Part shown: positions 42,541 to 47,687 of the stretch, one piece after another
How the letters are laid out: the number at the start of each line of letters is the position of its first letter
Position numbering within the stretch: position 1 is the stretch's first letter
Assembly: GCA_910578525.1 (NCBI GenBank)
Contig: CAJTRF010000003.1
Coordinates: forward strand, 6,442 to 70,441
From: an uncultured Mycoplasmatales bacterium
GTDB taxonomy: Bacteria > Bacillota_I > Bacilli_A > Mycoplasmatales > Mycoplasmoidaceae
DNA: 64,000 bases
Direction of reading: 5' to 3'
Translations under genes and position numbers: made by a program
Notes under the pieces: model-generated
Told to the model about the DNA's origin: nothing
Seen by the model: the letters and a program-made list of their open reading frames with translations, nothing else
The model's database searches: none

Positions 42541-44394
42541 ATGGATTTACAAGATATAAAAAATAAGACTATAGAAATGATAAAAGATTTAAGCAATAGA
42601 GGTCTGTTGATTGAAAAACAAACTGAAGTTGCTACAAATGGTCTAAACTTAATTGATATATATATATATATAGTCAATCAAGCAAGAAACGAACAAGAAG
42701 TTAATGTAATAGCTAATTTAATTAAAGGATTACAAGAAGGTTTTAATTTTCAAAGAGTACCAACAATTACAACAAATACTTTAACAATATTAGAACCTTC
42801 AAAATATCAAAAAGGTGAAATCTCTCCTACTCATAATAAAGTTATCATTTGCGATAATACCATTGAAAAAGAAAATTGAGAAAAAATTAACAATAAAATA
42901 GATAGGTTAAACAAAGAAAAACCGTTTGATTATAAAAAAGAAATTGAAACGTTAAAAAAAGAACAATTTATCCTGGCGCCTGATAATTTAGATGTTTTAA
43001 ATAATTTACTTTGTGATAAAACAATACAAGACAACGGCGGCATTGACATAATATACATTGACCCTCCATATAATACAGGAAACAGCTCTCTTGGTTATAG
43101 AGATTTAAGAGAACAAAATGAATGATTAAATTTTATGAAAGCAAGGCTGGAGGTAGCCTCTGATTTATTATCTAATGATGGAATAATTTTTATTTCAATA
43201 GATGACAATATGCATTCTTATTTAAAAATAATTTGTGATGAAGTATTTGGAAAGAAACAATTTGTCGGTAATATTATTTGAGATAAAATGAATTTTCAAC
43301 AAGGAGCTCATAATATACAAAAAAATCACGAATATGTTTTAGTATATTCAAAAAATGATTTATCTAATAAGAAGGTACTATTCAATGTAGATTCACAAAA
43401 TTTAAAATTTTATACAGATGATTTTGGTACATATTATAGGGAGTATCCGTTTGATACATCCTTTGGTAATGATAAACTAGTAGATAGACCGAGCATGGGG
43501 TACATTTTTTACTATAACCCTAAAACAAATGAAAAAATTCTCTCTAATAATTATGTAAAAGACAAAGATATTATTAAAGAAAATAATATAGATAAAGTCT
43601 ATTCATTTGACAAAGCTTTAATTTCAAAAGGTTTTGTTCCTATTTATCCTCCATTAAGAAAAGGAAATGTTTTAGGGTGTTGATCAAGAGGGATGGTTGA
43701 TGCCAAAAATTTATTAGAAAAAAACTTATTGGATTTTGTAAAAACAAAAAGTGAATCATATAAAATTTATCCTAAAAAATACATAGAAGATGGTTTTTCT
43801 AAAACAAACGATCACCCTATTCAATCAATAATTAAATATTCTTCTAGTGATGGTACAAAAGTATTAGGGGAAATTTTAAATAATAAAAAATTTGGGAATC
43901 CTAAGAATGTTGATATGATTAAATTTTTAATCTCTTCATACAAAGCAAAAAAGGATCCATTAATTTTAGATTTTTTTGCCGGATCAGGAACAACTGCTCA
44001 ATCTATACTAGAATTAAATAACGAAGATAAACAAAAAAGAAAAATTATACTTGCTACTAAAAAATTTGATTTTATACCGTCACTTAATAGTTGGGAAAAC
44101 ATTGGTGAAAATGTATTAATTGAGCGTATTTTTAGAATTTCATATGGAACAAATAAGGATGGAAAAAAACTCTCAAAAAAAGAATGTCCTTGATTATCAC
44201 ATAATACCCCTTTTAATATTGATTTTGATTATTTAGAAACAAAACAATATGATATTTCTTTAGAAAGTCAATTAAATCCTTATGAAATAATTGATTTATC
44301 CGTTTATGGATATATAGATATTCTTTCTCTTGATGAAAGAAAAAAAATAATAAATGCAAAATTCAATATCTTATTAAATCATTTAAATAAATAA
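42541..44394 (+). CDS. mod: Type III restriction-modification DNA methyltransferase (Mod, N6-adenine, beta class)
   Basis: Three track ORFs in frame 1 are joined by UGAs (617 aa). Motif IV IYIDPPYNTG precedes motif I DFFAGSGTT, with a variable region between them. res starts 5 nt downstream. Confidence 0.85.
42656..42672 (+). repeat. (TA)8 dinucleotide tract inside the mod 5' coding region
   Basis: ATATATATATATATATA at 42656-42672, encoding DIYIYIV, about 38 codons into mod. Confidence 0.9.
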
Positions 44395-44399
44395 TTTTT

Positions 44400-46787
44400 A
44401 TGTTGCTAGAAATTCAAGAAAAAAAGATTAATGAAGTAGTTTCGCTACTTTCAACTGAACAGTTTGACAAAAATCATCCTTTATATTTTCAATCCCCAAC
44501 AGGAAGCGGTAAAACTTTAATGTTAGCAAGAATAATTGAAGAGTTTAAAAAAAATAATCCAAATGAAAACTTCTTATTTTTAGTTGCTTCAATTTCAACT
44601 GGTGGAATTGAAAAACAAAATTATGAATCTTTATATAATTCTCAATTAAAAGGTAGTAATTTTAATGTAGAGCATATACCTAGTGGTTTGACAACACCGT
44701 TGCGTCCAAGATATCATACTGATGTGTTAACGATTGGAGAAGCATCATTTAAAAATGGGTCGAATTTATTTAAATTAAAATTATTAGAATCTTATCTTGA
44801 AAAAGTTAGTGAAAACAAAAGAATAATTTTTATAAGGGATGAAGCCCACATTGGAACAAAGATAAATACTAATGACACATCACAAAATCTTTCAAAATTA
44901 AATAGATATTTTTATAAACAATTATGATTATCTGCAACATTAGAAAACGGAAAAGAGCAAATGATTCCTCATGTTTGCATGACTTTATCTGAAGCTCAAG
45001 ATGCCGGATTAATTAAAAATAACATTAGTCTCTTTGATGGAGATATTGAAGACAATGAAAATGAGGAACATCTTTTTGAGCTAGCTTGTAAGAAGCTAAA
45101 AAAATTATGGGGTTCTAATGAGCATCCAGGAATATATAGAAAAATAAGTGATATCAAGGGCCAGATAATCAAACCAGCCCTTTTGGTTCAAATCTCTTCT
45201 AAAACAAAAGGTGAAGAAGAAATTAAACAAATTATTAATATTTGTAAAAAACACAATTTAAACTACGCTTATACCTTGTCCAAAAACAAAGAAGCATTTC
45301 AAGCATCCGGTTTACTAAAGTCTAGAAAAATAACTAGAAATGAATTACAAAAAAACGATTCTGATATTGATGTTATTATCTTTAAATTTGCAATAGCTAC
45401 TGGTTGGAATATTCCTAGAGCTTGTATTTTAAGTCAATATAGAAATATTGACTCCGACAATTTGAGAATACAAACATTGGGTAGAGTTCTTAGAAATATA
45501 TTTGTAGGTGATATAGAGAATTTTAATAAATTCGATGATGATGAGCAAAAAGAAATATTAACTTGTTATTTATATTCAGCCCATCAATCGGCAAAACAAT
45601 ATGAAACTTCAATTTTAAAATTAAAAGATAGTTTTATAAACGAAAAAGTTAAAAAAACATATCTCTCACAAACTTCAAAAGATGTTGAAGGAAGAGGTTA
45701 TCTAGCAAAACACAATAATGACCTTGTAAGAGACTACATAAGTTTGTTTAACAAAGACATTAAAGGCACCAATATTGTTTCTTTGTTAAACAAGAACAAA
45801 ACACTTGATATTAAAATACCAAAAAAAATTTTTTCTGGTAATCTAAGTGTTAAAAAAATTGATCAATCTCTTGATAAACAGGGGAAAATAGGTAAACACA
45901 CAATTAATTGATTAGAAAAAACAATCTCTAATAAATTTCAATTAGAAAAAGAATTTAATAATTGATTACGTAGAAATTCTCCATATCTAAAAAAAATTTT
46001 TAATCAAGTCTTTAAACAAATAGGTTATATGAATTCTGTTTTATTCAAATGTAAAATTTTACAAGACATATCGTTTTCTAAGAAAATTATTGCTCAAAAA
46101 CGTCATTATCAAACCGATTCTGAAAAAGAATCAAAATATGATTTAAAAATTAAAGAAATTAATTTACCTCGTATACAATTTTCTAATAATCCAAAAGAAA
46201 ATATGTTGAATGCAGAGATTAGACATTTATCTCAAATTTTAACAACAACAATAAATGGTGAAAACAAACTTTTTTATAACTCTGATCCGAACTCGTCTAA
46301 CAATAATTCTCCTGAACGTCATTTTCTTCAAGATTTAGATAGTTTTGTAAAATACAACAAAGATTTTTTATACTTTATTCACAGGAATGAGCGTTCTAAA
46401 GAAAGTGTCTCTTATATTTATCGTGATGAAAACGGTAATAAACACGAACAGTATCCGGATTATATATTGCGAACAAAAAATGGCACGACAATTATTTGTG
46501 AGATTAAAACCATTTGTGGTGGAATTGAATATATCAATTCTATAAAACACATTGAAAAAGGTTATTTAAGAAACTCTGAAAAAATTACTGATTATTTTTT
46601 TGGAATAATTAAACACGCTGATTACAGATATCAACTAGTGTATTATAAAGAAGGTAAAAGAGTGCCGATGGAATTTTTAGATTTAAAAGAGAAATTTAAA
46701 GATTTTGATTTTGACGGATTAACTGAATTAGATGTACTTTTCGACATAATTAAATGCTATGAAAATAATCGGATTAGCATAAAATAA
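44400..46787 (+). CDS. res: Type III restriction enzyme Res subunit (SF2 helicase plus C-terminal PD-ExK nuclease)
   Basis: Three track ORFs in frame 0 are joined by UGAs (795 aa). Motif I SPTGSGKT, motif II RDEAH, SAT, motif VI QTLGRVLR. C-terminal YPDYIL...IICEIK nuclease motif. Confidence 0.8.
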
Positions 46788-47424
46788 TTTTTTCAAAATT
46801 TAAAAAATTTGCATTTTCTTTAACATAATTAATAAAATTTCAAATATTCGTTCCTCTATATTCTTTTAACGGTTTAAATTTCACTTTAGTTTTGTTGTCA
46901 TTAGAAATAATATAAGCTAGATTAAAAAAGATAGCTTTTATTTCAGATATATCTTTTTTTAATTCATCTTCAATTTCAGTTTGATATTTTTTTAAAATTT
47001 TGTTTGAGTGATTCTCACCAAAAGACAAAGTACTTCAATTATGAATAAAAAACGAAAGTTCTTCATAAACATCATTATTCAATATTTTCTTTAAAAAAGT
47101 AGTTTTCTCAAAAAACTCATTAATAGCAACATTCAGTTCATCGTTTCTACTTTTTATTGCATCAATACAATCAACAAAATCTCTTAACAAAACAACAAAA
47201 TGCATCCAATTTAAATATGTAATTTCACTTGTTGTCTTTTCAATTAACTCTTTTTCTTGTAATGAAAGAATCTTTAGTGATGGCTTAGAATATTGAAACA
47301 AATATGCTTTTGATAAATTAATACATACAATAGCATTTATTAAACCATTAATTAGTAAAAATGTCCATTGAATTAAATCTTCATACTTTATTTTATTTGT
47401 TTTGTATCTGTTATTCTTTCTCAC
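46774..47424 (-). CDS. hypothetical protein B (216 aa) flanking the Type III R-M locus
   Basis: GTG start at 47424. Two track ORFs (47035-47424 and 46840-47028) share one frame. UGAs are read through to TAA 46774-46776. Overlaps the res 3' end by 14 nt, convergently. Confidence 0.5.
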
Positions 47425-47610
47425 AATTATTCTTAATTTATTTTTTGTTTAAAAGAGCAATAATTACTTATTAATTTAGTTATTGCTTTTAAATCACTAT
47501 AAACTATGATAATATTATATATTTATAAAAATATAAATTTTGCTAGTTAAGATTTTAATCAACAAATAAATATTTTTACATTTTTATCAGATTTATGGTA
47601 TTATATATAT

Positions 47611-47687
47611 ACGCTTTCTATTGAGATTGCTGATACACCAAAGTGTGTTGTCAAGTATTAGGGAACTCAATAAGTGTAAAAAAGCGT
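47611..47687 (+). promoter_or_regulatory. structured leader upstream of rpsJ (S10 operon)
   Basis: Nested helices ACGCTTT(47611-17)/AAAGCGT(47681-87), TATTGAG(47619-25)/CTCAATA(47666-72) and ACAC-CAAA-GTGT (47635-46). Preceded by an AT-rich -10 region. Confidence 0.45.

What the first reader, a model, noticed from the sequence alone, without database searches (positions are those of the whole stretch)
42656..42672. (TA)8 tract inside the mod reading frame: candidate phase-variable methyltransferase (phasevarion)
Seen: a perfect ATATATATATATATATA run lies about 38 codons into mod and encodes DIYIYIV. There is no in-frame ATG between the tract and the catalytic DPPY motif, so a frameshift could not be rescued by re-initiation. 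Gain or loss of one TA unit shifts the frame by 2 nt and would truncate Mod. Established: Type III mod genes carrying simple sequence repeats switch ON/OFF by slipped-strand mispairing, and this changes genome-wide methylation. Inference: this mod may do the same. If Mod is OFF while Res is still made, Res should be inactive, because Type III Res needs Mod for target recognition. The caveat is that AT-rich genomes generate short TA runs by chance.
Basis: partly seen in the sequence, partly recalled or inferred. Interest (0 to 1): 0.62.

Follow-up and report, generated by a model that had tools for sequence, protein, structure and literature searches.

The report
Length-variable TA repeat switching a methyltransferase
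A run of eight TA units near the start of a DNA-methyltransferase gene in an uncultured mouse-gut mycoplasma-like bacterium changes length between, and apparently within, samples; this turns the gene on or off, and it is a well-supported new example of a known kind of genetic switch.

Summary
A 17-nt ATATATATATATATATA run (42656-42672) forms codons 39-44 (DIYIYI) of a 617-aa Type III mod gene (42541-44394). An intact res gene follows (44400-46787). The genome is a 28% GC mollicute that reads TGA as Trp. The run is not a by-product of AT-richness: about 1.7e-4 such runs are expected per 64 kb, and this window otherwise avoids slippery tracts.

Public data show that the tract varies in length. 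In contigs otherwise identical to the window it has 8 units in 15 runs, 9 in 5 runs and 7 in 2 runs. Two biological samples each gave 8 units in one run and 9 in another. The same tract sits at the same codon in at least four diverged alleles, with 5 to 10 units. In 8 of 9 near-identical pairs it is the only indel. Every out-of-frame copy becomes a full 617-652-aa ORF once the tract is set in frame, and the upstream 38-codon leader evolves like coding sequence. Two alleles carry a different target-recognition domain.

This is therefore a slipped-strand ON/OFF switch of a Type III Mod. Known mollicute examples use GA/AG repeats, and a TA repeat is known in an M. hominis Type II methylase. Still untested: read-level switching rate, the methylation motif, and any effect on gene expression (the "phasevarion" claim).

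The parts
42524..42529 (+). TATAAT, candidate -10 promoter element 11 nt upstream of the mod ATG. It implies a very short 5' leader on the mRNA.
   Evidence: Read directly from the sequence. The upstream 25 nt are nearly identical in lineage-2 loci L001, L005 and L012. The consensus promoter scan did not list it because there is no -35 match. Function is inferred.
42541..44394 (+). mod: Type III N6-adenine DNA methyltransferase, 617 aa under code 4, beta-class motif order (DPPY, then TRD, then FxGxG).
   Evidence: Pfam N6_N4_Mtase 2e-36. PADLOC MTase_III 2.5e-59. Best PDB hits are three Type III Mods: 7dsu Mbo45V 4e-38, 6k0w, and 4zcf EcoP15I Mod. Motif positions.
42541..42655 (+). Leader: 38 codons (plus the G of codon 39) between the ATG and the tract. 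It is conserved as coding sequence in all alleles, including copies that are currently out of frame.
   Evidence: Variable sites by codon position 1/2/3 = 13/2/23, with no stops in 7 alleles. Alignment.
42653..42655 (+). TTG directly 5' of the tract, preceded by an in-frame TAA. It comes into frame with the Mod body when n = 4, 7 or 10. Possible alternative start for a Mod lacking its N-terminus; unproven.
   Evidence: Gene callers used it for P0124, P0002, P0005, P0130 and P0131. It is absent from L006, L007 and L008, which have ATCG or ATAG there.
42656..42672 (+). (AT)8A simple sequence repeat: the hypermutable switch. n = 5, 8 or 11 reads through to full-length Mod. Other lengths shift the frame.
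   Evidence: Length variants seen.
42671..42673 (+). TAG made from the last TA of the tract plus the following G. It is the stop codon read when n = 6, 9 or 12, giving a 42-46-aa peptide.
   Evidence: Lineage 2 has an equivalent immediate stop (TAA).
42702..42704 (+). TAA, the stop codon read when n = 4, 7 or 10, giving a 51-55-aa peptide ending ...SQSSKKRTRS.
43060..43071 (+). DPPY catalytic motif IV, residues 174-177.
43258..43974 (+). Approximate target-recognition domain (about residues 240-478) between DPPY and FxGxG. Replaced by unrelated sequence in alleles L003 and L007.
   Evidence: Binned identity to the window Mod is 13-44% in this region and 82-100% in the flanks. Boundaries are approximate.
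43975..43989 (+). FAGSG, the AdoMet-binding motif I, residues 479-483.
44400..46787 (+). res: Type III restriction subunit, 795 aa, intact, starting 5 nt after the mod stop. Contains GSGKT (residue 35), DEAH (147), SAT (178), QTLGRVLR (358) and PD...EIK (686-703).
   Evidence: Pfam ResIII 3e-15. PADLOC REase_III 2.8e-36 over residues 22-697. Motifs conserved in L001 and L007. Junction sequence.

Best explanation
The (TA)8 tract is a slipped-strand-mispairing contingency switch inside the 5' coding region of a Type III mod gene. Gain or loss of TA units during replication moves the ribosome among three frames. With n = 5, 8 or 11 the full 617-aa Mod is made (ON). With n = 6, 9 or 12 translation stops at a TAG formed at the end of the tract (44 aa when n = 9). 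With n = 4, 7 or 10 it stops about 10 codons after the tract (53 aa when n = 7). The switch is reversible, and a gut population of this mollicute holds a mixture of ON and OFF cells. Shown here: the tract's length polymorphism, its recurrence in several alleles, the integrity of OFF copies and the coding constraint on the leader. Inferred from other Type III systems: ON cells methylate one adenine motif genome-wide and assemble an active Res-Mod restriction complex, while OFF cells lose both methylation and restriction because Res needs Mod to find its target. Whether the benefit is variable phage or DNA-uptake barriers, altered gene expression (a phasevarion), or both is not resolved.
For: 1. 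Type III identity.
2. The tract is far longer than chance allows. It is also the only long SSR in a window that otherwise avoids slippery runs: no homopolymer of 9 nt or more is seen where about 25 are expected.
3. In contigs otherwise identical over 451 nt, n = 8 in 15 runs, n = 9 in 5 runs and n = 7 in 2 runs. Three of six studies hold two lengths.
4. Two biological samples gave different lengths in different runs: S23 has n = 8 at depth 84.9 (X29) and n = 9 at depth 84.8 (X34); S8 has n = 8 (X8) and n = 9 (X37).
5. Independent assemblies, including two NCBI MAGs, carry n = 9 with 99.8-99.9% identity over 3.5-4.3 kb.
6. Four diverged alleles (59-80% aa identity to this Mod) carry the tract at the same codon, each with several lengths. 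Lineage 2 has 8, 9 and 10 at the DNA level, plus 7 inferred from protein P0130. Lineage 3 has 9 and 10. Allele 5 has 7 and 9 at the DNA level, plus 8 inferred from proteins P0139 and P0140.
7. The tract is the only indel in 8 of 9 near-identical pairs of 3-7.7 kb.
8. Every OFF copy restores to 617-652 aa when the tract is set in frame.
9. The leader shows a coding substitution pattern, 13/2/23 by codon position, with no stops, in OFF copies too.
10. Precedents: AG10/AG12 switching of MmyCI Mod in M. mycoides (PMC3498834); GA[n] mod genes across Mycoplasmataceae (PMC5909438); and a (TA)6-12 tract encoding IY repeats that varies within strains of M. hominis (PMC10305163).
Against: No raw reads of this organism were available, so neither the switching rate nor minority subpopulations were measured. 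The within-sample evidence rests on majority contigs from different runs of one BioSample, and those runs could come from different aliquots or time points. n = 8 dominates (15 of 22 runs) and one allele (L007/P0141) has an interrupted tract, so switching is not indispensable. No methylation, expression or restriction data exist for this organism. Metatranscriptome contigs cover the locus, but DNA carry-over cannot be excluded.
Confidence: 0.85

Rival explanations
1. Phasevarion proper: the main selected role of the switch is epigenetic. Mod ON or OFF changes methylation at promoters and so switches a set of genes, while restriction is secondary.
For: There are several mod alleles with conserved N- and C-terminal regions but unrelated central TRDs (L003, L007), which is the pattern Atack et al. 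regard as typical of phasevarion mods (PMC5909438). In lineage 3, res carries the same frameshifts in two independent samples (L004, L013), while mod keeps its tract and a restorable 618-aa ORF. This resembles Haemophilus, where res is often inactive (PMC1976455).
Against: In the window and in lineages 2 and L007, Res is intact with all helicase and nuclease motifs, so restriction is probably still in use. No expression or methylome data exist. Both lineage-3 copies seen are OFF.
Confidence: 0.35
2. Phase-variable defence: the switch exists to vary the restriction barrier. This could be bet-hedging between phage resistance and uptake of foreign DNA, or relief from self-restriction, with no regulatory role for the methylation.
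For: Res is intact and sits immediately downstream (5-nt gap), with conserved GSGKT, DEAH, SAT, QxxGRxxR and PD...ExK motifs. PADLOC classes both genes as Type III R-M. Homology between alleles begins at the mod ATG, with unrelated upstream flanks, as expected for a mobile defence cassette.
Against: Lineage 3 keeps the tract and an intact mod body although res is broken. TRD diversification fits either role.
Confidence: 0.4
3. Three-state switch: besides full-length ON and null OFF, the n = 4/7/10 frame yields a Mod lacking its N-terminus (579 aa at n = 7), initiated at TTG 42653, with altered activity or level.
For: In that frame a TAA is followed directly by TTG and then the tract, and the body is open from there. 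The TTG is present in alleles 1, 2, 3 and 5. Automatic gene callers chose it.
Against: No ribosome-binding sequence precedes it. The mRNA appears to have a very short 5' leader, which favours the first ATG. The TTG is absent in L006, L007 and L008. A gene-caller choice is not evidence of use.
Confidence: 0.1
4. Neutral decay or artefact: the length differences are assembly or sequencing errors at a low-complexity run, or the first step of pseudogenisation of a dispensable R-M system, and are not a maintained switch.
For: Dinucleotide runs are error-prone in PCR-based libraries. L006 shows a lineage in which mod and res are both broken. R-M systems are often lost.
Against: The variant lengths are the majority allele at depths of 16-85 in independent assemblers and studies. 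All changes are multiples of 2 nt. A (TA)5 tract 5 kb away has the same length in lineages 1 and 2. OFF copies have no other lesion. The leader stays under coding constraint. The tract persists across alleles only about 75-82% identical in DNA, in a genome that purges slippery runs.
Confidence: 0.05

Closest known systems
MmyCI Type III R-M of Mycoplasma mycoides subsp. capri (Algire et al. 2012, PMC3498834), and the GA/AG[n]-bearing mod genes of Mycoplasmataceae surveyed by Atack et al. 2018 (PMC5909438)
   Same: A mollicute Type III mod-res operon. A dinucleotide repeat lies inside the 5' part of mod. Stop codons are read directly after the repeat in the shifted frames. Repeat number differs between clones or strains. 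There are several alleles with different TRDs.
   Different: The repeat unit is TA rather than AG/GA. It begins at nt 116 of mod rather than nt 320. This Mod is only distantly related to the solved M. bovis Mod (7dsu, E 4e-38, no alignment before residue 139). The host is an uncultured mouse-gut Mycoplasmatota lineage, not a cultured pathogen. No activity data exist.
DCM8/DAM3 (MhoVII) fused Type II methyltransferase of Metamycoplasma hominis (PMC10305163)
   Same: A (TA)n tract inside a mollicute DNA methyltransferase ORF that encodes IY repeats. Frameshifts there truncate the protein. Intra-strain variation of 6-12 units was shown by sequencing cloned PCR products.
   Different: That enzyme is a Type II fusion with the tract inside the TRD of the alpha-class half. 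Here the gene is a Type III mod with a partner res, and the tract lies in the N-terminal leader upstream of the catalytic domain.
modA/modB/modD/modH/modM phasevarions of Haemophilus, Neisseria, Helicobacter and Moraxella (PMC1976455, PMC5909438)
   Same: An SSR in the 5' region of a Type III mod gives ON/OFF expression. Alleles differ in the central TRD. In some lineages res is inactivated.
   Different: Those systems use tetra- or pentanucleotide or homopolymer repeats, and regulon control has been shown experimentally. Here no regulon, motif or phenotype is known.

Membership tests
Type III restriction-modification system | Mod subunit: a beta-class N6-adenine methyltransferase with motif IV (DPPY) N-terminal to motif I (FxGxG) and a TRD between them | tested here: met
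   DPPY at 174-177 and FAGSG at 479-483. Pfam PF01555 2e-36. PADLOC MTase_III 2.5e-59. Top PDB hits are Type III Mods 7dsu, 6k0w and 4zcf.
Type III restriction-modification system | Res subunit: an SF2 helicase-like ATPase with a C-terminal PD-(D/E)xK nuclease, encoded directly downstream of mod on the same strand | tested here: met
   res starts 5 nt after the mod stop. Pfam ResIII 3e-15. PADLOC REase_III 2.8e-36. GSGKT, DEAH, SAT, QxxGRxxR and PD...EIK are conserved in three diverged copies. No sequence-level hit to a solved Res.
Type III restriction-modification system | Enzymatic behaviour: single-strand m6A methylation of an asymmetric site, and ATP-dependent cleavage that requires a Res-Mod complex | not testable with these tools
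   No methylome or biochemical data. Inferred from family membership.
Phase-variable mod gene (criteria of Atack et al. 2018) | A dinucleotide repeat of at least 5 units within the mod ORF | tested here: met
   8 units at codons 39-44. Criterion quoted from PMC5909438.
Phase-variable mod gene (criteria of Atack et al. 2018) | Repeat number differs between strains or isolates carrying the same gene | tested here: met
   n = 7, 8 and 9 in otherwise identical sequence. Lineage 2 shows 8, 9 and 10 in DNA (7 inferred from protein P0130), lineage 3 shows 9 and 10, and allele 5 shows 7 and 9 in DNA (8 inferred from proteins P0139/P0140).
Phase-variable mod gene (criteria of Atack et al. 2018) | Length change switches the reading frame between full-length and truncated protein | tested here: met
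   In silico: 617 aa for n = 8, 44 aa for n = 9, 53 aa for n = 7. OFF copies restore to full length.
Phase-variable mod gene (criteria of Atack et al. 2018) | High-frequency, reversible switching within a clonal population | tested here: inconclusive
   Two BioSamples gave n = 8 and n = 9 in different runs, which suggests mixed populations. No raw reads or clonal cultures were available.
Phasevarion (phase-variable regulon) | Mod ON/OFF changes genome-wide methylation and the expression of multiple genes | not testable with these tools
   No methylome, transcriptome or proteome of defined ON/OFF populations. Only indirect hints: TRD alleles and a res pseudogene alongside an intact mod in lineage 3.

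The most novel reading that the evidence does not exclude
The switch has three states rather than two, and it operates in a gut commensal rather than a pathogen. n = 5/8/11 gives full-length Mod, n = 6/9/12 gives none, and n = 4/7/10 gives a Mod without its N-terminus, started at the TTG that abuts the tract. Populations of an uncultured mouse-gut mollicute would then carry three epigenetic or restriction states, across several TRD alleles that move as a cassette between genomic contexts.
Probability: 0.1. Interest if true: 0.6.

Novelty: new member of a known kind. Interest (0 to 1): 0.42.

Why it matters
Phase-variable Type III methyltransferases are known mainly from cultured, host-adapted pathogens. 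This example comes from an uncultured Mycoplasmatota lineage that recurs in mouse gut metagenomes, and it uses a TA repeat rather than the GA/AG repeat reported for mollicute mod genes. Public assemblies alone show the tract in both OFF frames and in the ON frame, in several alleles with different target-recognition domains. This matters in three practical ways. First, gene callers split or truncate this gene in MAGs (419-, 464-, 538-, 579- and 583-aa 'proteins' plus 44-46-aa leader ORFs), and those calls should be read as phase states, not pseudogenes. Second, methylation-based binning or strain typing of this organism will be unstable. Third, the laboratory mouse offers a tractable setting to ask whether methyltransferase phase variation matters for a commensal.

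Tried and rejected
- **Table-11 ORF calls:** these fragment mod and res at TGA, so I switched to code 4.
- **JGI metagenome scans:** a leader DNA pattern and the protein itself both found nothing.
- **GTDB species genomes:** the scan gave only one relative, L005.
- **Raw-read runs X20-X22:** they share a species label with holders of the sequence but contain no reads of this organism, so no read-level repeat counts were possible. A search restricted to METAGENOMIC libraries listed nothing.
- **Runs X14-X16 and X23 (sample S8):** no usable contig on the region, although the index lists its words.
- **Runs X19, X25 and X26:** contigs break at or around the tract at depth 4-6. This could be heterogeneity or low coverage, so I did not count them.
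- **Res against solved structures:** no sequence hit.
- **NCBIfam:** nothing above cut-off for Mod or Res.
- **Supplementary table of Atack et al. 2018:** not held, so I could not check whether any TA[n] Type III mod is already listed in REBASE.
- **Rescue of OFF frames by compensatory frameshifting at the upstream A6T run (42558), as reported for M. bovis mod1:** rejected, because both alternative frames have stop codons between that run and the tract.
- **Paralogy of the two flanking unknown genes:** rejected (BLASTP E 0.022).
- **Tract in a 5' UTR or promoter rather than coding sequence:** rejected, because of the codon-position pattern of the leader.

Full report
**What is in the sequence.** Positions 42656-42672 read ATATATATATATATATA, with a G on each side. 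The window is 28% GC, and its long ORFs only appear under genetic code 4. Under table 11 the region falls apart at TGA codons. Under code 4 there is a 617-aa ORF at 42541-44394 and a 795-aa ORF at 44400-46787. Five TGA codons lie in the first ORF. Those at codons 195 (NEWLNF) and 381 align with Trp in the solved M. bovis Mod, Mbo45V. The closest genome in the GTDB species set is labelled 'uncultured Mycoplasmatota bacterium', and the sequence recurs in mouse gut metagenomes.

**Gene identity.** The first ORF is a Type III Mod:
- Pfam N6_N4_Mtase, 2e-36.
- PADLOC MTase_III, 2.5e-59.
- The three best solved-structure matches are all Type III Mods: 7dsu Mbo45V, 6k0w and 4zcf EcoP15I Mod.
- DPPY at 174-177 precedes FAGSG at 479-483.

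The second ORF is a Type III Res:
- Pfam ResIII, 3e-15.
- PADLOC REase_III, 2.8e-36.
- GSGKT, DEAH, SAT, QxxGRxxR and a C-terminal PD...EIK motif are all conserved in diverged copies.
- It starts 5 nt after the mod stop.

**Is the tract more than chance?** Yes. A first-order Markov model of the window expects 1.7e-4 alternating A/T runs of 17 nt or more per 64 kb. In 300 simulated windows the longest run never exceeded 14 nt. The window also avoids slippery sequence. About 25 A or T homopolymers of 9 nt or more are expected and none is present. The only other dinucleotide repeat of 5 or more units is an intergenic (TA)5 at 47602-47611.

**Consequences of length change.** Computed for n = 4-13:

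| Repeat units (n) | Outcome |
|---|---|
| 5, 8, 11 | Full-length Mod (615, 617 and 619 aa) |
| 6, 9, 12 | Stop at the TAG formed by the tract end plus G (42-46 aa) |
| 4, 7, 10 | Stop at TAA 42702 (51-55 aa) |

There is no in-frame ATG, GTG or TTG between the tract and DPPY; the next Met is residue 199. There is one exception. In the n = 4/7/10 frame, the TTG at 42653 directly before the tract is in frame with the body. An A6T run at 42558 resembles the (A)5T site that rescues +1 frames of M. bovis mod1. Here both alternative frames contain stops between it and the tract, so that route is closed.

**Does the tract vary in the same strain?** I laid Logan contigs of public runs on 42450-42900.

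| Units | Runs (study) |
|---|---|
| 8 (15 runs) | X1, X18 (P1); X2, X3, X17 (P2); X4-X7, X27-X29 (P3); X8 (P4); X10, X13 (P6) |
| 9 (5 runs) | X9 (P5); X33-X35 (P3); X37 (P4) |
| 7 (2 runs) | X11, X12 (P6) |

These contigs show no other difference over the 451 nt. Three of the six studies hold two lengths. Two BioSamples gave different lengths in different runs. S23 has n = 8 at depth 84.9 (X29) and n = 9 at depth 84.8 (X34). S8 has n = 8 (X8) and n = 9 (X37). This points to mixed populations within a sample, but it is contig-level evidence. Independent assemblies agree: two NCBI MAGs and one Logan contig (L009-L011) carry n = 9 at 99.8-99.9% identity over 3.5-4.3 kb.

**Does it recur in relatives?** The protein search found a small family of close relatives. 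Their DNA shows the same tract at the same codon.

| Allele | Identity to window Mod | Tract lengths seen |
|---|---|---|
| Lineage 2 | 80% aa | n = 8 (L005), 9 (L012), 10 (L001, L002); 7 inferred from protein P0130 |
| Lineage 3 | 70% aa | n = 9 (L004), 10 (L013) |
| L008 | 70% aa | n = 7 |
| Allele 5 | 59% aa, different TRD | n = 7 (L003), 9 (L014, L015); 8 inferred from proteins P0139 and P0140 |
| L006 | 79% aa (over the 348-aa fragment) | n = 5, in a copy whose mod and res are both broken |
| L007 / P0141 | 65% aa over half the query, different TRD | Tract interrupted (DTYIHIV / DTYIYIV); Mod and Res intact |

In nine near-identical pairs (99.4-99.9% over 3-7.7 kb), the tract is the only indel in eight. 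The ninth has one extra in-frame 15-nt indel in res. The intergenic (TA)5 has the same length in lineages 1 and 2.

**Is OFF a reversible state or decay?** Setting the tract to an in-frame length restores a 617-652-aa ORF in every OFF copy. The 38-codon leader has 13, 2 and 23 variable sites at codon positions 1, 2 and 3. It has no stop in any allele, including the OFF copies. So these genes are translated from the upstream ATG often enough to remain under purifying selection. The tract has persisted across alleles that are only about 75-82% identical in DNA.

**Allele structure.** L003 and L007 are 82-100% identical to the window Mod at the N-terminus (about the first 240 residues) and similar again at the C-terminus. 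They are only 13-44% identical in the central region between DPPY and FxGxG, so they carry different TRDs. Homology between alleles starts at the mod ATG, and the upstream genes differ, so the mod-res pair behaves as a cassette. In lineage 3, res has the same two frameshifts in two independent samples, while the mod body is intact.

**Mechanism, and what is inferred.** Shown: a hypermutable TA tract that toggles the mod reading frame, is maintained in several alleles, and occurs in both OFF frames and the ON frame in natural populations. Inferred from established Type III biology (EcoP1I/EcoP15I, MmyCI; PMC3498834): ON cells methylate one adenine motif and can restrict, while OFF cells do neither because Res needs Mod for recognition. 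Not resolved: whether selection acts on the restriction barrier, on gene regulation, or on both. The intact Res here favours a working R-M system. The TRD alleles and the res pseudogene in lineage 3 fit the path toward a regulatory Mod described for Haemophilus (PMC1976455).

**Comparison with known systems.** Mollicute Type III mod genes with GA/AG[n] tracts are well documented (PMC5909438, PMC3498834). A (TA)6-12 tract encoding IY repeats varies within strains in an M. hominis Type II methylase (PMC10305163). This locus combines the two: a TA tract in a Type III mod, at nt 116 of the gene, in an uncultured gut lineage. I rate it a new member of a known kind. I could not check whether REBASE already lists a TA[n] Type III mod.

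**Limits.**
- No raw reads of the organism were available.
- Contigs show only majority alleles.
- Run and sample identities are coded, so 'same sample' means same BioSample label.
- Metatranscriptome contigs cover the locus but may include DNA.

Noticed in passing
window 1-64000: Strong avoidance of long homopolymers. About 19 A-runs and 6 T-runs of 9 nt or more are expected from nearest-neighbour composition, and none is present; the longest is 8 nt. Apart from the mod tract, the only SSRs found are (TA)5 at 47602-47611 and (CTT)4 at 34784-34795.
   Followed up: partly
window 41745-42413 (-) and 46774-47424 (-): Two ORFs of 222 and 216 aa flank the mod-res pair on the opposite strand. Neither has a Pfam or PADLOC match, and they are not detectably related to each other (BLASTP E 0.022). 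Lineage 2 has ORFs of similar size at the same positions (226 and 216 aa in L001).
   Followed up: partly
L004 3560-5957 and L013 2118-3615: In lineage 3, res is split into the same three ORFs (305, 105 and 392 aa, in three different frames) in two independent samples. The mod body is intact but out of frame at the tract (n = 9 and n = 10). I did not examine the sequence at the res frameshift sites.
   Followed up: partly
L003 / L010 (both from SRR28237131); run X12: Allele 1 (window type) and allele 5 (different TRD, different upstream gene directly abutting the leader) occur in the same sample. In X12 a minor contig (depth 3, against 48) carries the allele-5 upstream sequence. This could be two strains or two mod loci in one genome; not resolved.
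   Followed up: no
L003, L004, L006, L008 against window 42540; L007 against window 42532: DNA homology between diverged alleles begins at or within a few bases of the mod ATG, and the upstream sequence is unrelated. This suggests the mod-res unit has been placed in different genomic contexts.
   Followed up: no
L014 about 3450 (res), against L003 3644: An in-frame 15-nt insertion (CACAGACTTCAAAAG) in res is the only non-tract indel among nine near-identical pairs.
   Followed up: no
runs X14, X15, X16, X23 (sample S8): The run index reports 95-99% of the region's sampled words in these runs. Even so, no contig could be laid on 42450-42900 apart from a spurious 18-nt TA match. The cause is unknown.
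   Followed up: no
window 41028-41630 (+): A 200-aa ORF lies just upstream of the R-M locus. Its counterpart in the lineage-2 loci L001 and L012 is ribosomal protein S4 (Pfam Ribosomal_S4/S4), so the cassette sits next to core genes.
   Followed up: no
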